Virus record (IMG/VR): IMGVR_UViG_3300009963_000014
Span: 1-42,286 of that record
DNA: 42,286 nucleotides
From: a virus
Strand: one strand, 5' to 3'
Shown: piece after piece, positions 16,675 to 42,286 of the stretch
How the letters are laid out: every line of letters begins with the position of its first letter
Numbering within the stretch: position 1 is the stretch's first letter
Notes under the pieces: generated by a model
Told to the model about the DNA's origin: nothing
Databases searched by the model: none
Seen by the model: only the letters and a program-made list of their open reading frames with translations
Made by a program: the position numbers and the translations under genes

Positions 16675-16775
16675 ACAGATAGGCAGGACTGTCGGGGCTC
16701 CTGCATTTCTCGACCCACTATAAGTGGCGCGTTGGTGACAGATTCTCAACCTCTATCTTTACTGAAAGTATAGCA

Positions 16776-34532: not shown

Positions 34533-35039
34533 ATGTTTAGTTTGATTGATATTTTGAATATTTCTGCCGCTTGGCTTGGTGCTATTACTGGTGTTGTTAG
34601 CTTGATTTACTCTTTGAAAGTCAATAGAGTGAAATTGAGTATTTCTAAATTCCGTAAAAAGAGAATGAACGAATACTCCTGTTATCAATACAGTTTTGTT
34701 TTGTCTAACCAATCCAACTCAAATGTCGTAATCAAGAATATCCAACTGTTTGACAAAAACGGAAAAGAAATTTTTGACAACGGATTTAATCCAGCTACTG
34801 CTTTTCCTGAGATAAAATCAGACCCTTTTGGTTTGGTTAGTAGTACACAGACCTTGTTTAACGTAGATTGGTACTCTACACCATTTGAAGATGAAATAGA
34901 ATTAAATCCATACTCATTCGAAAAGTTGTCATACTACCTTAACGAACCTCCACATACTATCAAGGTCAAGACCAACAGACAAATTCATTATCTTTCTAAA
35001 TCTAAATCATTCCATCCTGTCTTTAATAAAGCAAAATAG
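34533..35039 (+). CDS. N-terminally membrane-anchored protein, unknown function (candidate lysogen-expressed exclusion/defence factor)
   Basis: 168 aa. TM helix ISAAWLGAITGVVSLIYSL. Own TGgTATAAT promoter at 34500-34508. Oriented against the early operon. Confidence 0.75.
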   Translation: MFSLIDILNISAAWLGAITGVVSLIYSLKVNRVKLSISKFRKKRMNEYSCYQYSFVLSNQSNSNVVIKNIQLFDKNGKEIFDNGFNPATAFPEIKSDPFGLVSSTQTLFNVDWYSTPFEDEIELNPYSFEKLSYYLNEPPHTIKVKTNRQIHYLSKSKSFHPVFNKAK

Positions 35040-36537: not shown

Positions 36538-36627
36538 ATGGTAGATTACATCCTCACAAATATTATTCTACCCTTGGTGGTCGGTATCATCCTGATAGTC
36601 ATTGAAAAATGGCTAAACAAGAAATAG
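36538..36627 (+). CDS. Fst-family-like type I toxin peptide (29 aa)
   Basis: Not in the ORF track. AGGGAGGTGGAG RBS. Encodes MVDYILTNIILPLVVGIILIVIEKWLNKK. TGaTATAAT promoter at 36491-36499. Confidence 0.65.
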   Translation: MVDYILTNIILPLVVGIILIVIEKWLNKK

Positions 36628-36657
36628 CGACCAACCCACCTTTCTAGCGTAGACTAG

Positions 36658-36698
36658 AAAAAGCCCTTGCTTTTGTGGTTATCAGCAGGGGCTTTTTT
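36658..36698. terminator. Bidirectional rho-independent terminator
   Basis: A5-gcccuugcu-N12-agcaggggc-U6. Preceded by a second hairpin uuucuag-N6-cuagaaa at 36641-36660. Confidence 0.7.
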
Positions 36699-36816: not shown

Positions 36817-36845
36817 TTGACAACTAACACCAAATCGGCTAAAAT
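36817..36845 (+). promoter_or_regulatory. Sigma-70-type promoter TTGACA-N17-TAAAAT directed toward cI
   Basis: Read directly. The -35 overlaps one ACAACTAA motif. Confidence 0.5.
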
Positions 36846-37041
36846 GAAAGCATAATAAAAACACTAATAAATCCATAAATACCGTTCGCCAAAACATTTT
36901 TTATAATTTATTTCTTAGTTGTTTTTTTAGTTGTAACTTACTTACAAAAAACATTTTACACCTTTTGGGATAATTAGTCAACCTTTTTACACCGAATTTG
37001 TTAAATATTTTTTGTAATGTCTTAGAAAGGTTGATTTAACA

Positions 37042-37392
37042 ATGTTTGAGACATTTGAAAAAATAAAAGAATTGGCAAAAAAGCGTGGAAAATCTCTTGG
37101 ACAAGTCGAAGAAGACTTAGGTTATGGCAGAAATACACTGTATAAGATAAAAAACTCTACGCCAAATGCTGAACGTATAGCAGAAATTGCTAACTACTTC
37201 AACGTATCCACCGACTACCTGCTCGGACGAACAGATAACCCAGTTATCGCTGGGGATACCGTCACAAAAACAGAAATAGACCTCAAAAAGGACGCAGCAG
37301 AAAGCTTCTTTTACGATGGACACGAACTCAACGACGAGGATTTAGACCTCATCTCCTCACTACTAGAAGCTCGTATGAGAAATAGAAAGTAA
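37042..37392 (+). CDS. XRE-family phage repressor (cI/ImmR-like, no S24 peptidase domain)
   Basis: 116 aa. N-terminal HTH_3 ...LGQVEEDLGYGRNTLYKIKN.... Followed by an ImmA-type protease gene. Confidence 0.9.
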   Translation: MFETFEKIKELAKKRGKSLGQVEEDLGYGRNTLYKIKNSTPNAERIAEIANYFNVSTDYLLGRTDNPVIAGDTVTKTEIDLKKDAAESFFYDGHELNDEDLDLISSLLEARMRNRK

Positions 37393-37395
37393 TAC

Positions 37396-37785
37396 TTGCC
37401 TATGACAACACCCGAACAAGTCTGTTCTGAACAAGGTATCGATCTAGTTTATTTTGATGGTAGAGGTTCCCACAATAAAGGACTTTACAACCAACCCTAC
37501 AATCTTATAGCGGTAGACACTTACCTAGATGATATTGAGAAAAAGAAAGTCATCTATCACGAGATAGGGCACAAAGACCACAACCCGGAGCAGTATAAAC
37601 GAAGACGAGAAGAATACGAACTCCAAGCAGATAGAAACATGATCCACTACCTGCTAAAAGAAGAACTAGAAACGATGGATGACATCACTAATTTCAACTA
37701 CCTCCATTTCATGGAAAAATACAACCTCAAAACCATGACAAACGAAATCATGGTCAAGGAAGAATATTTATCATTAGTAAATTAA
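37396..37785 (+). CDS. ImmA/IrrE-family zinc metalloprotease (anti-repressor protease)
   Basis: HEIGH motif. Partner of the XRE repressor. Alternative ATG start at 37402. Confidence 0.85.
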   Translation: MPMTTPEQVCSEQGIDLVYFDGRGSHNKGLYNQPYNLIAVDTYLDDIEKKKVIYHEIGHKDHNPEQYKRRREEYELQADRNMIHYLLKEELETMDDITNFNYLHFMEKYNLKTMTNEIMVKEEYLSLVN

Positions 37786-37798
37786 AAAAGGAGAAAAC

Positions 37799-38221
37799 AT
37801 GAGTAGCTTTAACCAAAAGAGCAATCCGTTTAAGGAAAAAATGACCTCGATTCGAATTGTTCAACCTGAAAGTGGTCAACTCTTAGGTACAGTAACTAAT
37901 TTCGACTCATTCCCTGGCTCGACAAATCTGATCGCTTTTTTAGATTTTTTTAATTTAATCCCCGGTAAAACTTATATATTATCCGTGAATGCTTATTTTC
38001 AAGATGGCATAAATTACCCAGTCCATGCTACAAGGATTAACATACCTCAAAGTGAGTTCATAGATTTGAAAGATAATTACGGGAAATCGACAGGTCATTT
38101 TGATTTTAGTTTTACAATTCGGTTCCCGAATGATTTTTACTTTTATTTCAATCTGTCTGACGAGGATGGAAATCAGTTAGATGAAGCATATAGTTACCAT
38201 TCTTTTATAAATCAGGGGTAA
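37799..38221 (+). CDS. Hypothetical cytoplasmic protein, lysogeny-operon cargo
   Basis: 140 aa. AAGGAG RBS. No TM segment and no motif recognised. Confidence 0.75.
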   Translation: MSSFNQKSNPFKEKMTSIRIVQPESGQLLGTVTNFDSFPGSTNLIAFLDFFNLIPGKTYILSVNAYFQDGINYPVHATRINIPQSEFIDLKDNYGKSTGHFDFSFTIRFPNDFYFYFNLSDEDGNQLDEAYSYHSFINQG

Positions 38222-38224
38222 GCT

Positions 38225-38659
38225 ATGTCAGAACTACAAAACAATTTCAAACCTACTACCTCTAACGTTTCCTCTATTCATGCTTCTAAACCGTCGTTAA
38301 AAACTGTACCCATACAAAATAATGATATAATGGAGGAAACAAGAGAATTGGAGGAACGATATATGGCAAACGATACATATACCAAGACAGAAATCGATTT
38401 AAAACTTGATAAAATCAATTCTGATGTCAAACATGGTTTTGAAAAGGTTGATTTAAAATTCGACCAAACCAGAACTGAAATGCGTGATGGTTTTGAAAAT
38501 ATGGGACTTCGAATGGAAAAGATGTTCTCTGATTTCAAATTGGAGCAACAAAAAGAGAAAGAAGAAAACAAAAAATGGTTAATCGCATTAACCATCGGAT
38601 CTCTTCTTTCAATTATCGGGATTGTGGTTTCAATTATCGCTATCCTAGTACAAAAATAA
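38225..38659 (+). CDS. Tail-anchored membrane protein with coiled-coil repeats (XhlA-like architecture), lysogeny-operon cargo
   Basis: 144 aa. Internal GFEKVDLKFD / GFENMGLRME repeat. C-terminal TM WLIALTIGSLLSIIGIVVSIIAILV. Confidence 0.75.
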   Translation: MSELQNNFKPTTSNVSSIHASKPSLKTVPIQNNDIMEETRELEERYMANDTYTKTEIDLKLDKINSDVKHGFEKVDLKFDQTRTEMRDGFENMGLRMEKMFSDFKLEQQKEKEENKKWLIALTIGSLLSIIGIVVSIIAILVQK

Positions 38660-38708
38660 AAAAATCCCCACACTCGCCATCGCCAAATCTTGAGTGTGAG
38701 GATATCCT

Positions 38709-38747
38709 GTATAAGAAACAACCATTCAAAAGGTCGGTTTCTTATAC
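38709..38747 (+). terminator. Perfect 11-bp-stem hairpin between cargo genes and int (terminator or processing site)
   Basis: guauaagaaac-N17-guuucuuauac followed by CCAUUUUAUC. Confidence 0.5.
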
Positions 38748-38777
38748 CCATTTTATCAAGAAATGAGGTAAAAATCA

Positions 38778-39881
38778 ATGATTGGAAAATACCAAAAAAA
38801 TGGTACTACTGCTTATTACTTTAAAGCATATCACGGACTTGACCCTTTAACAAATCAAAAAATTATTACCAAACGTCGTGGTTTTAAAACAGAGCGTGAA
38901 GCAAGACTTGCTGAAGCAAAATGCTTAGCTGAGTATGAGAAGAAAACTTTTAGAGCAAAAAATACCACTACTACTTTTAGACAGGTATTTGAGGTTTGGA
39001 AAGAACATTATAAAGGCGCTGTCAAAGAATCGACATATATAAGCCAAATAGACAAAGCAGAGAGACTCATACTCCCGTTTTTTGGGGATAAGGCTATCAA
39101 TAAGATTAGTCTCGTCATGTGTCAAAATCAAGTCAATAAATGGGCTTCAGAATACAAGCAGTTCTTTGGGATCATCAGCATAGCTAACCAAATATTCGAT
39201 TACGCTATTTCAATGGAATTGATTGAAAATAATCCAATGAGAAAGACATTGAAGCCTAAACGACAAAAAAATAATACAGATGAACTAGAAAAGTTCTACA
39301 ACAAAGAAGAGCTGCAAGAGTTTTTTGAAATCGTTAATGATTTTGATGATATAGAGATGCTTACATTCTTCCGTCTGCTGGCATTTACTGGAATGAGAAA
39401 GAATGAAATCAGCGCCCTCAGATGGTCTGATATCGATCTGAAGAGCGGACAGATAACTGTTAATCAAACCTTGGCTAAGGGGGGAGATAATAAACTTATC
39501 TTTCAGACTCCAAAGACAAAAAAGAGTGCCCGAACAATTACCCTAGATAAAAAGACAATTGAAGTTTTAAAAGAATGGCACAAGTATAGTACTAAAGGAC
39601 TCCTCTTCAAAAACGAAAACGGCGAGCCGAAAAGTGTCGTCCATGTTAACAATATGCTTAACAGGATTTGGAGGAAGTATCCAGATTTTAAACGTATCAC
39701 ACCTCACGGTTTCAGACATACCCATTGCTCCTTGCTCTTTGAAGCTGGTGCTACCATCAAAGAGGTTCAAGAAAGACTCGGTCACGAGAACATTCAAACG
39801 ACCATGGACATATATGCTCACGTCACTCAAAAAGCAAAGGATGAAGTGGCTGATAAATTCGCTTCTTACATAGGTTTTTAA
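38778..39881 (+). CDS. int: Tyrosine integrase
   Basis: 367 aa. C-terminal HGFRHTH...LGHENIQTTMDIYAHV catalytic motif. Confidence 0.95.
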   Translation: MIGKYQKNGTTAYYFKAYHGLDPLTNQKIITKRRGFKTEREARLAEAKCLAEYEKKTFRAKNTTTTFRQVFEVWKEHYKGAVKESTYISQIDKAERLILPFFGDKAINKISLVMCQNQVNKWASEYKQFFGIISIANQIFDYAISMELIENNPMRKTLKPKRQKNNTDELEKFYNKEELQEFFEIVNDFDDIEMLTFFRLLAFTGMRKNEISALRWSDIDLKSGQITVNQTLAKGGDNKLIFQTPKTKKSARTITLDKKTIEVLKEWHKYSTKGLLFKNENGEPKSVVHVNNMLNRIWRKYPDFKRITPHGFRHTHCSLLFEAGATIKEVQERLGHENIQTTMDIYAHVTQKAKDEVADKFASYIGF

Positions 39882-39885
39882 AATA

Positions 39886-39909
39886 TGGGTACCAAAATGG
39901 GTACCAAAA
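39886..39909 (+). repeat. attP arm-type repeat copy 1 (2 x TGGGTACCAAAA)
   Basis: Exact 24-mer, repeated at 40102-40125. Confidence 0.6.
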
Positions 39910-40101: not shown

Positions 40102-40125
40102 TGGGTACCAAAATGGGTACCAAAA
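40102..40125 (+). repeat. attP arm-type repeat copy 2
   Basis: Exact copy of 39886-39909, 216 bp away. Confidence 0.6.
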
Positions 40126-40512: not shown

Positions 40513-40630
40513 CTCCTTTGAAATAACGGACACTTGGCTGGTCGGTGTACCCAGCATCTCAGATACCTTTTTCAAGGTGCGGCAGGAACCTTTCTGCCCT
40601 CAAATGTCTTCCGTTAATGTTATTCTAGCA

Positions 40631-41011
40631 CTAACTGCTTTTTTTGTCAAGCTTTCTCAATCTACCAGACTTAATACGATTTTGTAACTTGAAATCTTGT
40701 AAGCGATACATGGTCGGAACATAAAAGAAATCGCCACTTTTATGTAACTTGATGGCAACGAGAACATTATCATCAAATTTTTTTACATATTCAAAACTAG
40801 CGTCTTTCTCTCGTGGATTGACCCCAACGAAATCTGGACTTCTTAGTATGAGTTCCAAGTCTTCAATATGATGGATCACATCATTATGATGGCGTTTCAA
40901 CATATGGCTTCTCAAACCTTCTTTGTTGACCTTGATTTCACTTGCTTCAAGAATAATATTAAAAATTTCTTTTACTTCATCGGTAACCTGACCGATTTTT
41001 TCATGATTCAT
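40631..41011 (-). CDS. Stand-alone PBECR-like (Barnase-EndoU-ColicinE5/D-RelE-like) putative nuclease, moron
   Basis: 126 aa. ...EGLRSHMLKRHHNDVIHHIEDLELILRSPDFV...VAIKL...GRLRKL matches my recollection of the I..H..rHpnD...I...PD pattern. Own promoter and terminators. Confidence 0.65.
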   Translation of the reverse strand: MNHEKIGQVTDEVKEIFNIILEASEIKVNKEGLRSHMLKRHHNDVIHHIEDLELILRSPDFVGVNPREKDASFEYVKKFDDNVLVAIKLHKSGDFFYVPTMYRLQDFKLQNRIKSGRLRKLDKKSS

Positions 41012-41048: not shown

Positions 41049-41999
41049 TTATTTTGTTGTTATAAGCCCATCTGGCTCAACTGTGAACTCTGGCTTGTCT
41101 GCCATTGTTCCGTCTGGTTTAATGTAATACCAGCCTTGACCTGCTCTGACGAATTCATTAGATGCCATGTTTCCGCCCTTGCTATCAAGGTAGTACCATG
41201 TATCCTTGTATTTAACCCAACCTGTTTTCATGCCACCTTCAACGTCGAAATAGTACCACTTGTCAGCAATCTTCTTCCAACCTGTTGCCATTGCGCCTGA
41301 GTTGTCGAACCAGTACCAGTTGCCGTCTGAGTGCTTTTTCCAGCGGTCTGCAAGCATGTAGCCTGAGTTATCGAAGTAATACCAGGTTCCGTTGATTTTC
41401 TCAAACTTGTCTTTTGGATAAGAGCCGTCTGAGTGTACATACCAATAGCCTGTATCATTCTTCTGCCAGCCTGTTTCAGAGCCTAACCCGTTCTCAATAT
41501 CATGTTTAAACTGTTCACGGCTGATGCCCCATTTCGCAAGATAAGGATACGGGTCAACGTGGTCGCTACTGTTATCCGGCTGGTTGTTGGTACAGTATTC
41601 ATGTGTTTTGATACCTGCCAAGTCGTCTGTATCAAGTGTTTTCGGCAATCCTGCTTCGTCCGCAAGATTTCGCAAAAGCGGAACGTATAACCTGTAATCA
41701 CGGTCGAATTCTTCTTGTGTCTTATGACTTTCAATCAGCTCAACAGCTGCATAGGTTTCAGCGTTCCAACCGCCCCCAACGTCCCAAGATCCATTATTTA
41801 CAGGCCCGACCTGCATGACACGGCCATTCCCGACTACGTGAGAAAAGAACCCTAGTTCAGGGTCCTTTCTCCAGTGATAGTCAGCTTCATTTTGAGCTGT
41901 TGAGTTGTGGTTGCCAGTTGAGTGGGCGTGTACTTGTCGATAAGGTTGCACCCCAACTTGTGGCAAGTCCGTGCGTAGTCTGCTTGTATCGATATCCAT
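41049..41999 (-). CDS. LytA-type N-acetylmuramoyl-L-alanine amidase with C-terminal choline-binding repeats (phage lysin)
   Basis: [30 protein letters not shown]... plus six GW/YYF choline-binding repeats, near-collinear with pneumococcal LytA. The ATG at 41999 overlaps the holin stop (TAATG). Confidence 0.95.
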
Positions 42000-42286
42000 T
42001 ACTCTTGTCCTTTCCAAGCGTCATTCATCTGCTTCACTGCTGACTCTACAAAGGTGTCTAAGTCCTTATCAGTCATGCTGATGTTGTATTTTGTAAGTTC
42101 AGCTCGGACTTTATCACGAGCTTGCTCTAGCTTTTCATCACCTTTGAAGCCAGTCTCAGATGCGACCTGCTCCACGGAATGAACTGCATTTTTAGCTAGG
42201 ATTTCAGCGATTTTGACAGTCTTTTCACCACCCTCTTTGATGAGGTACTCCTTGACCGCTTTGACTGCGATGCCAAGCAAAATAAT
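41999..42286 (-). CDS. Holin, LL-H-like, 3' portion (5' end runs off the window; completed by 128-175)
   Basis: ORF-track 41999-42280. Continuous with the N-terminal TM segment encoded at 1-175 through the 127-nt overlap. Confidence 0.8.
42160..42286. repeat. Terminal duplication copy 2 (identical to 1-127)
   Basis: See copy 1. Implies a circular or terminally redundant unit of 42159 bp. Confidence 0.95.

What the first reader, a model, noticed from the sequence alone, without database searches (positions are those of the whole stretch)
37799..38659. Two-gene cargo between ImmA and integrase: uncharacterised candidate prophage defence/exclusion pair
Two genes follow cI and ImmA in the same operon, with tight spacing and good RBS. 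The first encodes a 140-aa soluble protein with no recognisable motif. The second encodes a 144-aa tail-anchored membrane protein with an internal GFE-x-[VM]-[DG]-L-[KR] repeat and XhlA-like coiled-coil-plus-C-terminal-TM architecture.

The repressor-to-integrase slot is the classic place where temperate phages of Firmicutes carry Sie, Abi and other defence genes expressed in the lysogen. I recognise neither protein as a described system, and their coupling suggests they work together.
Basis: inference. Interest (0 to 1): 0.65.

Follow-up and report, generated by a model that had tools for sequence, protein, structure and literature searches.

The report
Conserved two-gene cargo in streptococcal prophages
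Two tightly coupled genes of unknown function sit beside the repressor of a Streptococcus temperate phage and travel together through many streptococcal prophages, making them a credible but untested candidate for a new phage-exclusion system.

Summary
Window 37799-38221 encodes a 140-aa cytoplasmic protein (A). Window 38225-38659 encodes a 144-aa tail-anchored coiled-coil membrane protein (B). Both follow cI and ImmA on the same strand with 3-13 nt gaps.

Neither matches a described family: no PADLOC hit, nothing in Pfam or NCBIfam above cut-off, and PHROGs of unknown function only.

- **Pairing:** of 59 phage-derived loci carrying A, 57 have a B-type gene immediately downstream, even where A is only about 23% identical.
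- **Mobility:** the pair moves as a cassette. It lies before or after ImmA, and also behind a LexA-like repressor with no ImmA.
- **A:** an Ig/FN3-like beta-sandwich under strong purifying selection.
- **B:** a disordered, fast-evolving N-terminal tail, a conserved coiled coil plus TM helix, and a conserved internal Shine-Dalgarno/ATG at Met47 that predicts a 98-aa short form.
- **Swapping:** A plus the first ~30 codons of B exchange as a unit. In one satellite lineage B is replaced by an AbiD abortive-infection protein.

Best reading (about 0.45): a lysogen-expressed module with a cytoplasmic sensor or regulator and a membrane effector, comparable to RexAB. No experiment supports this. Published work on neighbouring cargo genes in pneumococcal prophages shows that they modulate prophage induction, so that alternative stands.

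The parts
36817..36845 (+). Promoter-like site (TTGACA-17-TAAAAT) about 200 nt upstream of cI. Candidate lysogenic promoter of the cI-ImmA-A-B operon.
   Evidence: Consensus scan only, 11 of 12 positions matched. No expression data.
37042..37392 (+). cI/ImmR-type short repressor, 116 aa. First gene of the operon.
   Evidence: Pfam HTH_19 8.5e-11 and HTH_3 6.9e-9; phrog_8 1.4e-26.
37396..37785 (+). ImmA-type metalloprotease (anti-repressor protease), 129 aa.
   Evidence: Pfam Peptidase_M78 1.1e-9; phrog_87 7e-32.
37799..38221 (+). Gene A: 140-aa cytoplasmic Ig/FN3-like beta-sandwich protein. Member of phrog_10787.
   Evidence: - ORF.
- phrog_10787 at 7e-50.
- AlphaFold all-beta sandwich: pLDDT 80.5 alone, about 97 with a deeper alignment.
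- Only generic Ig-like fold matches.
- dN/dS 0.03-0.16.
- 50 sequence clusters among 1.84 billion representative proteins.
38214..38227 (+). A/B junction: AGGGG Shine-Dalgarno inside the end of A, A stop TAA (38219-38221), one codon, then the B ATG (38225-38227).
   Evidence: Read from the sequence. A gap of 1-5 nt or an overlap between the A stop and the B start recurs in diverse loci.
38225..38659 (+). Gene B, long form: 144-aa tail-anchored membrane protein with a cytoplasmic coiled coil. Member of phrog_6701.
   Evidence: ORF; phrog_6701 at 4.7e-29; C-terminal hydrophobic window at residues 116-144; long helix over residues 54-143.
38225..38362 (+). B N-terminal tail (residues 1-46): predicted disordered and fast-evolving. 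It is inherited together with A.
   Evidence: - pLDDT below 50 for B residues 13-32.
- dN/dS 0.2-0.98, against 0-0.31 for codons 47-75.
- A identity tracks B N-terminal identity (rho 0.71) better than B C-terminal identity (rho 0.35).
- Similarity to locus L063 resumes at window 38318.
38350..38365 (+). Internal GGAGGA Shine-Dalgarno (38350-38355), an 8-nt spacer after the GGAGG core, and ATG of Met47 (38363-38365). Predicted start of a 98-aa short form of B.
   Evidence: - GGAGG is kept at nucleotide level in 15 loci (14 other loci plus the window) although the encoded residues differ.
- Gene callers annotate the 98-aa form in S. mitis (P0079, a 60-member cluster).
- In phage Javan53 only this start remains.
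38435..38512 (+). Repeat region of the coiled coil: GFEKVDLK (38435-38458) and GFENMGLR (38489-38512).
   Evidence: Read from the translation. Repeat number varies among homologues.
38576..38647 (+). C-terminal transmembrane helix of B (W118-L141). Only 3 residues follow it.
   Evidence: Hydropathy window. W118 is invariant in the family.
38664..38703 (.). Stable hairpin just after the B stop. A T-run follows it only on the minus strand.
   Evidence: RNA fold -14.8 kcal/mol, z = -4.3 on the + strand. The terminator scan did not call it.
38778..39881 (+). Tyrosine integrase. Downstream border of the cargo slot.
   Evidence: Pfam Phage_integrase 1.2e-32.

Best explanation
A and B form a two-protein cargo module that the prophage expresses in the lysogen from the repressor operon. 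It most likely acts against incoming phages, by abortive infection or exclusion at the membrane.

**Proposed working**
- B is anchored in the membrane by its last about 25 residues, and everything else faces the cytoplasm.
- Its conserved coiled coil drives oligomerisation, and the TM helices form the effector part, by membrane permeabilisation or blocking of a membrane step.
- A is a soluble Ig-like beta-sandwich made in fixed ratio with B through translational coupling. It acts as the specificity or regulatory subunit, probably through the variable N-terminal tail of B.
- A second, shorter B made from the internal start at Met47 lacks that tail. It could tune the system the way holin and antiholin pairs do.

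**Shown**
- The gene organisation.
- The obligate A-B adjacency and the mobility of the cassette.
- The fold of A and the topology of B.
- The disordered, fast-evolving tail of B and its linkage to A.
- The conserved internal start signal.
- The swap of B for AbiD in one satellite lineage.

**Inferred**
- Expression in lysogens.
- A-B contact.
- Membrane damage.
- Any anti-phage effect.
For: **Operon placement.** A and B are co-oriented with cI and ImmA, separated by gaps of 3-13 nt, and no terminator was called between them.

**A-to-B adjacency.**
- Of 59 phage-derived loci with A, 56 have an HMM-supported B directly downstream.
- One more has a tail-anchored B-like protein, and 2 have AbiD.
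- The pairing holds where A is only about 23% identical to the window's A (L019).

**B-to-A adjacency.**
- Six loci reached from B queries all have an A-family gene upstream.
- So do Javan155, and Javan385, where B is split into two ORFs.

**The cassette moves as a unit.**
- Gene orders cI-ImmA-A-B-int and cI-A-B-ImmA-int both occur.
- A cassette 96% identical in DNA sits behind an HTH+Peptidase_S24 repressor with no ImmA.

**Accessory status.** Phages with 84-93% identical cI/ImmA carry other genes in the slot.

**Link to abortive infection.**
- A is followed, 2 nt after its stop, by an AbiD/Abi_2 protein (PADLOC 1.9e-26, Pfam 6.2e-26) in satellite Javan277 and its relatives.
- That AbiD carries about 14 extra N-terminal residues compared with an A-less homologue.
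- Its N-terminus resembles one type of B N-terminal tail: 0 of 2000 shuffles reached the score.

**A plus the B tail behave as one unit.**
- Correlation of identities: rho 0.71 for the B N-terminus against 0.35 for the B C-terminus.
- A recombination breakpoint lies at about B codon 32.

**Neighbouring cargo is toxin- or defence-like.** RelE, ParE, MazF-like, DEDDh/PDC-S48, Fic and a FaRel2-like toxSAS occur in the same slot.
Against: - No homology to any PADLOC model (2023 release), and no Pfam or NCBIfam family above cut-off. DefenseFinder was not available.
- No experiment or paper on these proteins was found.
- The AlphaFold run on an A-B fusion did not dock the B tail onto A. pLDDT was 40-63 there and pTM 0.53. 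The test was weak, because B had no alignment and the model was a monomer.
- An HMM of B N-terminal tails did not detect the AbiD N-terminus. The A of that satellite is not closest to the A whose B tail it resembles.
- The A-AbiD pairing is a single lineage.
- A itself evolves conservatively (dN/dS 0.03-0.16), unlike many arms-race sensors.
- Other cargo genes of this slot in pneumococcal prophages regulate induction rather than defence (PMC12637031).
- An orphan A homologue sits alone between aroA and eno in a chromosome.
Confidence: 0.45

Rival explanations
1. A-B is a co-regulator of the prophage's own life cycle. Membrane-anchored B and soluble A would feed a signal (envelope state, cell density, competence) into the decision to excise, replicate or lyse, or would set lysis timing. 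This is what the szaL and spaL cargo genes do in pneumococcal ImmA/ImmR prophages.
For: - The pair lies inside the repressor operon. In many phages it sits between cI and ImmA.
- Published experiments show that other cargo genes of this module alter activation, burst timing and density dependence (PMC12637031).
- The dual-start architecture of B recalls the timing devices of lysis proteins.
Against: - The same cassette (96% DNA identity) works behind a LexA-like repressor without ImmA, so it is not tied to ImmA.
- Many phages with near-identical cI/ImmA lack it.
- A pairs with an AbiD in a satellite.
- No similarity to SzaL, SpaL or ThaL, as those are described in the paper: a surface-exposed zinc metalloprotein, a surface-exposed zinc protein, and a transmembrane HIRAN-domain protein.
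Confidence: 0.2
2. A-B is a host-directed cargo gene pair (moron) that protects the prophage or benefits the host without targeting phages. One example would be interference at the inner face of the membrane with DNA uptake or competence, which would prevent deletion of the prophage by transformation. Another would be altered envelope physiology.
For: - Every homologue that a source names is from Streptococcus, a naturally transformable genus, or from unnamed Caudoviricetes metagenome contigs.
- Pneumococcal prophages are under strong pressure from deletion by transformation, and several interfere with competence (PMC12637031).
- The bulk of B faces the cytoplasm, where uptake motors act.
Against: Purely speculative: no link to any competence protein was found. 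The association with AbiD, and with toxin-like neighbours, points towards phage defence.
Confidence: 0.12
3. A-B is a toxin-antitoxin-like addiction pair. B (or its short form) is a membrane toxin and A is its upstream, translationally coupled antidote. The pair would stabilise the prophage, with no role in phage exclusion.
For: - The layout (small upstream gene, tight coupling, downstream potentially toxic membrane protein) resembles type II TA operons.
- A also precedes AbiD, a toxic effector.
- The slot holds several TA genes.
Against: - No toxicity data.
- A is not a DNA-binding or known antitoxin fold.
- In Javan53 the short B stands without A. That would be lethal if B-short were an unopposed toxin, unless it is a relic.
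Confidence: 0.1
4. B is an XhlA-like lysis accessory protein (with A as helper) that acts with the holin at the end of the lytic cycle.
For: Coiled coil plus C-terminal TM architecture. Weak match to a PHROG holin family (E 5e-3).
Against: - The pair lies in the lysogeny module, on the strand opposite to the lysis cassette. That cassette is complete elsewhere: a holin_6_1 ORF at 41999-42280 (−) and an amidase-type lysin with choline-binding-type repeats, assigned by reading the translation, at 41049-42017 (−).
- No XhlA Pfam match at E up to 1.
Confidence: 0.03

Closest known systems
Lambda RexA/RexB (prophage abortive-infection pair co-transcribed with cI)
   Same: A two-gene module in the repressor operon of a temperate phage: one soluble cytoplasmic protein and one membrane protein, proposed to be expressed in the lysogen. 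The comparison rests on established knowledge of RexAB and on the gene organisation seen here.
   Different: - No sequence similarity, and no PADLOC match.
- B is a single-pass tail-anchored coiled-coil protein, whereas RexB is a four-pass membrane protein.
- A is an Ig-like sandwich.
- No phenotype is known.
Mycobacteriophage Sbash gp30/gp31 and similar prophage-mediated defence pairs of Actinobacteriophages
   Same: Prophage-expressed pairs near the immunity cassette, combining a cytoplasmic partner with a membrane partner that is thought to act by loss of membrane potential.
   Different: Unrelated sequences and host phylum. Specificity and mechanism are untested here.
XhlA (PBSX) and DUF1640/CCDC90-like tail-anchored coiled-coil proteins
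   Same: Coiled coil followed by a single C-terminal TM helix. Weak sub-threshold profile matches.
   Different: - Below the Pfam cut-off (19.8 bits against 33.5).
- No XhlA match.
- Located in the lysogeny module, not the lysis module.
- Always preceded by gene A.
SzaL / SpaL / ThaL, lysogeny-module cargo genes of pneumococcal prophages (PMC12637031)
   Same: Same genomic slot in phages related to the window (pneumococcal and mitis-group prophages). Expressed with the repressor. Two of them are experimentally tied to prophage activation.
   Different: These are a surface-exposed zinc metalloprotein, a surface-exposed zinc protein, and a transmembrane HIRAN-domain protein. A and B are a cytoplasmic Ig-like protein and a tail-anchored coiled coil, and form a two-gene unit.
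Ltp (S. thermophilus TP-J34) and Sie2009 (lactococcal P335 phages) superinfection-exclusion proteins
   Same: Encoded between repressor and integrase in temperate phages of lactic acid bacteria. Membrane-associated (PMC3952083).
   Different: Ltp is a secreted lipoprotein and Sie2009 has an N-terminal anchor (the Sie2009 anchor is from my own knowledge, not checked here). Both act outside or at the outer face of the membrane. B exposes only about 3 residues outside, and A has no signal peptide.
Holin/antiholin dual-start genes (for example lambda S105/S107)
   Same: One membrane-protein gene with two in-frame starts, each with its own ribosome-binding site, would give two isoforms.
   Different: The two starts here are 46 codons apart, not 2. 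The gene is not in the lysis cassette. Use of both starts is not demonstrated.

Membership tests
PHROG phrog_10787 (A) and phrog_6701 (B), unknown function | Significant full-length match to the family profile | tested here: met
   A: 7.1e-50 over residues 1-139. B: 4.7e-29 over residues 3-138.
Known anti-phage defence systems (PADLOC-DB v2.0.0) | Match of either protein to any defence-system model | tested here: not met
   No family at E up to 1 for A or B. DefenseFinder models were not available.
XhlA / holin-associated lysis proteins | Profile match to XhlA or a holin family | tested here: not met
   No XhlA hit in Pfam at E up to 1. Only phrog_689 'holin' at E 5.3e-3.
XhlA / holin-associated lysis proteins | Location in the lysis cassette next to holin and endolysin | tested here: not met
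   The pair lies in the cI operon on the + strand. The holin and the lysin ORF lie at 41049-42280 on the − strand.
XhlA / holin-associated lysis proteins | Coiled coil plus single C-terminal TM helix | tested here: met
   Hydropathy window at residues 116-144 and a long helix over residues 54-143.
DUF1640 / CCDC90-like (PF07798) | Score above the Pfam gathering cut-off | tested here: not met
   19.8 bits against a cut-off of 33.5.
Ltp-type superinfection exclusion lipoproteins | Signal peptide with lipobox, and a surface-exposed domain | tested here: not met
   Neither N-terminus is hydrophobic. The only hydrophobic segment is the C-terminal end of B.
Ltp/Sie-type superinfection exclusion | Encoded between repressor and integrase and expressed in the lysogen | tested here: inconclusive
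   The position is met. Expression is inferred from operon structure only.
RexAB-like two-component abortive infection | Soluble partner plus membrane partner co-transcribed with the repressor | tested here: inconclusive
   The organisation fits. Transcription was not measured.
RexAB-like two-component abortive infection | Sequence or fold relationship to RexA or RexB | tested here: not met
   No PADLOC or Pfam match. A is an Ig-like sandwich and B is single-pass.
RexAB-like two-component abortive infection | Infection-triggered loss of membrane potential and exclusion of specific phages | not testable with these tools
   Needs phage challenge and membrane-potential assays.
AbiD / Abi_2 abortive infection proteins | Abi_2 domain in A or B | tested here: not met
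   No match for A or B. The alternative partner of A in Javan277 does match: Pfam 6.2e-26, PADLOC 1.9e-26.
Type II toxin-antitoxin pair | Toxicity of the downstream product, neutralised by the upstream one | not testable with these tools
   Only the coupled two-gene layout is seen.
ImmR/ImmA regulatory module (genomic context) | HTH repressor followed by an M78 metalloprotease | tested here: met
   HTH_19 8.5e-11; Peptidase_M78 1.1e-9.

The most novel reading that the evidence does not exclude
A is a portable adaptor that recognises a short N-terminal peptide tag carried by interchangeable effectors. The effector is usually a tail-anchored coiled-coil membrane protein, and once an AbiD nuclease-type protein. 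The membrane effector is made in two isoforms, tagged (144 aa) and untagged (98 aa, from the internal start), whose ratio sets a trigger threshold. This would be a new class of prophage-encoded abortive-infection system with plug-in effectors, widespread in streptococcal pathogens.
Probability: 0.15. Interest if true: 0.8.

Novelty: new variant of a known kind. Interest (0 to 1): 0.55.

Why it matters
If A-B excludes phages, it adds an unrecognised system with no homology to any catalogued one. It is carried by prophages of S. pneumoniae, S. mitis, S. suis, S. pyogenes, S. dysgalactiae and S. agalactiae. That bears on phage therapy and on prophage competition in these pathogens.

The anatomy gives concrete, cheap tests:
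- an Ig-like partner;
- a disordered tag that travels with it;
- a conserved internal start;
- replacement of the effector by AbiD.

If the pair instead tunes induction, it extends the recent finding that lysogeny-module cargo genes shape when streptococcal prophages activate.

Tried and rejected
**Family and structure searches**
- Pfam, NCBIfam, PADLOC and PDB sequence searches gave nothing usable for either protein.
- Fold searches of A against PDB and viral models returned only generic Ig-like sandwiches (GH2 Ig-like domains, adhesin domains, UNC119, RhoGDI, NPC2, Wzt CBD, a Pycsar AGS-C domain) with TM about 0.3-0.55. I did not treat any as a family assignment.

**Related-locus searches**
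- The closer alignment found 7 genome loci and 42 viral loci.

**Complex prediction**
- A mixed alignment was mis-stacked by MAFFT.
- The run finally accepted had an alignment for A only, and it showed no confident docking of the B tail.

**Shared tag on AbiD**
- An HMM of B tails did not find it.
- One pairwise match is significant.
- The cognate A proteins are not specially related.
- I keep this as a lead only.

**FaRel2-like toxSAS as a regular partner of B**
- Rejected. In Javan5 and Javan292 the same toxSAS has other neighbours.
- The Javan53 arrangement is therefore juxtaposition, with loss of A and of the 5' end of B.

**The 8-residue TKTEIDLK shared by cI and B.** It is not conserved in other loci, so it is probably coincidental.

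**Literature searches** found no study of these proteins.
Full report
**1. What is at the coordinates**

The window is a temperate phage or prophage of the pneumococcus/mitis group. Its structural genes are about 90% identical to those of pneumococcal prophages.

On the + strand lie, in order:
- cI (37042-37392),
- ImmA (37396-37785),
- gene A (37799-38221, 140 aa),
- gene B (38225-38659, 144 aa),
- a tyrosine integrase (38778-39881).

The gaps are 3, 13 and 3 nt. A is preceded by GGAG. The ribosome-binding site of B (AGGGG) lies inside the last codons of A, and only one codon separates the A stop from the B start. That arrangement suggests translational coupling.

- Domain matches confirm cI (HTH_19), ImmA (Peptidase_M78) and the integrase.
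- A consensus promoter (11 of 12 positions) lies about 200 nt upstream of cI, and no terminator was called inside the operon.
- A stable hairpin follows B, but its T-run is on the other strand.
- Expression in the lysogen is therefore plausible but not shown.

**2. Neither protein is a known family**

- A matches only phrog_10787 and B only phrog_6701. Both are families of unknown function.
- PADLOC finds nothing for either. Pfam and NCBIfam give nothing above cut-off.
- The best Pfam hit for B is CCDC90-like/DUF1640 at 19.8 bits against a cut-off of 33.5. A PHROG holin family scores E 5e-3.
- 'XhlA-like' therefore describes an architecture, not membership.
- Every source name found for close homologues is 'hypothetical protein'.
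- An exhaustive profile search of 1.84 billion representative proteins found only 50 matches for A. Most are free-standing proteins of about 140 aa.

**3. The pair is a conserved, mobile unit**

I collected loci from annotated phages, species-representative genomes, viral contigs and metagenome assemblies. I then scanned their ORFs with HMMs built from A and from B.

Results for the 59 phage-derived loci that carry A:

| Downstream of A | Loci |
|---|---|
| HMM-supported B | 56 |
| Divergent 112-aa tail-anchored protein with the same Y-S-K-S-E-I-D motif (Javan23) | 1 |
| AbiD | 2 |

Many of these loci are near-identical pneumococcal prophages. About 20 distinct A/B pairs remain, spanning S. 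pneumoniae, S. mitis, S. cristatus, S. suis, S. entericus, S. salivarius, S. pyogenes, S. dysgalactiae, S. parauberis and S. agalactiae.

- The pairing survives where A is only about 23% identical to the window's A (L019).
- It holds in the other direction too. Loci reached from B queries all carry an A-family gene just upstream.
- Both gene orders occur: cI-ImmA-A-B-int and cI-A-B-ImmA-int.
- A cassette 96% identical in DNA to window 37779-38782 sits directly behind a 251-aa HTH+Peptidase_S24 repressor with no ImmA. The pair therefore does not depend on ImmA.
- Phages whose cI/ImmA are 84-93% identical to the window carry other genes in the slot: a 179-aa lipoprotein in IPP27 and a DUF4177 protein in OlisA2. 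A-B is therefore accessory cargo.

**4. Anatomy of A**

- AlphaFold gives an eight-stranded beta-sandwich. Mean pLDDT is 80.5 with 24 sequences. The ten-residue block means for A are about 95-98 (apart from its first 10 residues) with 41 sequences.
- Fold searches return only generic Ig/FN3-like sandwiches with TM 0.3-0.55. These include GH2 Ig-like domains, adhesin domains, Wzt CBD, UNC119, RhoGDI, NPC2 and a Pycsar AGS-C domain.
- A profile-versus-PDB sequence search touches FN3 weakly (E 0.018).
- A has no signal peptide or hydrophobic segment.
- It is under strong purifying selection, dN/dS 0.03-0.16.

**5. Anatomy of B**

- One hydrophobic helix occupies residues about 118-141, and only three residues follow it. 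The 115-residue N-terminal part must therefore be cytoplasmic.
- Residues 54-143 are modelled as one long helix.
- The first 46 residues behave differently. They are predicted disordered (pLDDT below 50 for residues 13-32).
- They evolve at dN/dS 0.2-0.98, against 0-0.31 for codons 47-75.
- The reading frame is nevertheless kept in every lineage, so the tail is very likely translated.

**6. A conserved internal start in B**

Met47 (38363-38365) is preceded by GGAGGA (38350-38355), with an 8-nt spacer after the GGAGG core. GGAGG is retained in 15 loci (14 other loci plus the window) even though the encoded residues differ (LEE, SEE, QED, QEE, MEE, MEA, REE). The preceding codon always ends in G.

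- On the + strand of window 37000-39900, GGAGG occurs only three times.
- Gene callers frequently annotate the 98-aa form, for example S. mitis D8852_05170 in a 60-member cluster.
- In GBS phage Javan53, a FaRel2-like toxSAS gene has replaced A and the first about 21 codons of B.
- There, the remaining B can start only at this internal ATG, which still has AAAGGAGGT upstream.
- I therefore predict two products, B-long and B-short. This was not part of the original finding.

**7. A travels with the tail of B, and B can be swapped**

- Across 153 comparisons, A identity tracks the identity of the B N-terminus (Spearman 0.71) far better than that of the B C-terminus (0.35).
- Window against L063 gives A 31%, B tail 30% and B body 92% identity. 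DNA similarity resumes at window 38318, about B codon 32.
- Physical linkage alone could produce part of this pattern.
- In satellite Javan277 and its relatives, A is followed, 2 nt after its stop, by a 351-aa AbiD/Abi_2 protein.
- A homologue of that AbiD without an A gene upstream lacks about 14 N-terminal residues.
- The extra N-terminus resembles one type of B tail. The pairwise score was 50, and 0 of 2000 shuffles reached it, among 20 comparisons.
- Against this, an HMM of B tails does not detect it, and the two A proteins concerned are not specially close.
- I treat 'A binds an N-terminal tag' as a lead. The one structure test I could run was a monomeric fusion with an alignment for A only, and it did not dock the tail.

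**8. Most likely function**

The following together fit a lysogen-expressed module against incoming phages, with A as specificity or regulatory subunit and B as membrane effector:
- the position in the repressor operon;
- accessory and mobile behaviour;
- obligate pairing of a soluble protein with a membrane protein;
- the swap of B for an abortive-infection effector;
- toxin- or defence-like neighbours in the same slot: RelE, ParE, MazF-like, DEDDh/PDC-S48, Fic and toxSAS.

This is a RexAB-like logic. I put it at about 0.45. The specific adaptor and two-isoform mechanism I put at about 0.15.

Shown: organisation, pairing, mobility, folds, topology, selection pattern and the internal start signal. 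Inferred: expression, contact, membrane action and any phenotype.

**9. Rivals**

| Rival | Confidence | Main point |
|---|---|---|
| Regulator of induction or lysis timing | 0.2 | szaL and spaL, other cargo genes of pneumococcal ImmA/ImmR modules, were shown to alter prophage activation, burst timing and density dependence (PMC12637031) |
| Host-directed cargo gene, for example against deletion by transformation | 0.12 | Speculative; no link to competence proteins found |
| Addiction-type toxin-antitoxin pair | 0.1 | Layout resembles type II TA operons; no toxicity data |
| Lysis accessory protein | 0.03 | Disfavoured by position, strand and lack of an XhlA match |

Independence from ImmA and the AbiD swap argue against the regulatory rival but do not exclude it.

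**10. Novelty and score**

The proteins are uncharacterised and unrelated to catalogued systems. The proposed logic (prophage repressor-operon pair, soluble plus membrane) is a known kind, so I class this as a new variant of a known kind.

- Candidate defence pairs are common finds, and the evidence for function is circumstantial.
- In its favour, the cassette is widespread in important pathogens. It also has an unusually testable anatomy: a co-travelling tag, effector swapping and a conserved internal start.
- Interest 0.55.

Noticed in passing
window 36539-36628 (+), with terminator-like hairpin 36669-36692: A 29-codon ORF (MVDYILTNIILPLVVGIILIVIEKWLNKK) lies in the switch region between the cro-like gene and cI. 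It has a strong GGAGG-type ribosome-binding site, an extended -10-like TGTGATATAAT upstream, and a terminator-like hairpin downstream. It looks like an Fst-type type I toxin. The Pfam Fst_toxin match is E 0.0017, below cut-off. No antitoxin RNA family was found by Rfam.
   Followed up: partly
window 40529-40608 (−) and 16675-16760 (−): Two skipping-rope RNA motifs (Rfam RF02924; 72.1 and 50.0 bits, gathering score 36.7). The first lies just downstream of the PBECR3 nuclease gene, between the lysin and the integrase.
   Followed up: no
window 40631-41011 (−): A 126-aa ORF between the lysin and the attachment region. It matches PBECR3 (phage Barnase-EndoU-ColicinE5/D-RelE-like nuclease 3), Pfam 3.8e-17. 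This is another toxin-like cargo gene.
   Followed up: partly
window 39887-39909 and 40103-40125 (+): Two exact copies of a 23-nt element (GGGTACCAAAATGGGTACCAAAA, itself a near-duplication) lie 216 nt apart just downstream of the integrase gene. None was expected by chance. They are plausibly integrase arm-type sites flanking the attachment core.
   Followed up: partly
window 37264-37287 (cI residues 75-82) and 38381-38404 (B residues 53-60): The 8-residue string TKTEIDLK occurs in both the cI linker and the most conserved motif of B, encoded by different codons. Related cI proteins have only (E)IDLKK or other sequences there, so it is probably coincidence.
   Followed up: yes
L015-L018, 5001-5420: An orphan A-family gene (P0201, 139 aa, about 22% identical to the window's A) sits alone between an EPSP synthase gene and enolase in a bacterial chromosome. 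No B-like gene, repressor or integrase is nearby.
   Followed up: partly
L076 (Streptococcus phage Javan53) 1936-2827: A FaRel2-like RelA/SpoT toxSAS gene (Pfam 2.2e-7; PDB FaRel2 1.1e-8; PADLOC candidate PDC-S33) follows the repressor with a 1-nt gap. It has replaced A and the 5' end of B. The same toxSAS occurs without B in Javan5 and in satellite Javan292.
   Followed up: yes
L075 (Streptococcus phage Javan385) 2486-2868: Here B is split into two overlapping ORFs (65 and 62 aa) after an intact A. This is either a frameshifted pseudogene or a sequencing error.
   Followed up: no
L005, L023-L031 (S. mitis group loci): In one clade, A is annotated or readable with an extra, poorly conserved N-terminal extension of 55-107 residues (forms of 193-247 aa). 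Whether the extension is translated was not examined.
   Followed up: no
window 34533-35039 (+): A 168-aa ORF with an N-terminal hydrophobic segment lies on the + strand, the strand of the cI operon. Its neighbours are short ORFs on both strands. No Pfam match at E up to 0.01. It may be another cargo gene.
   Followed up: no
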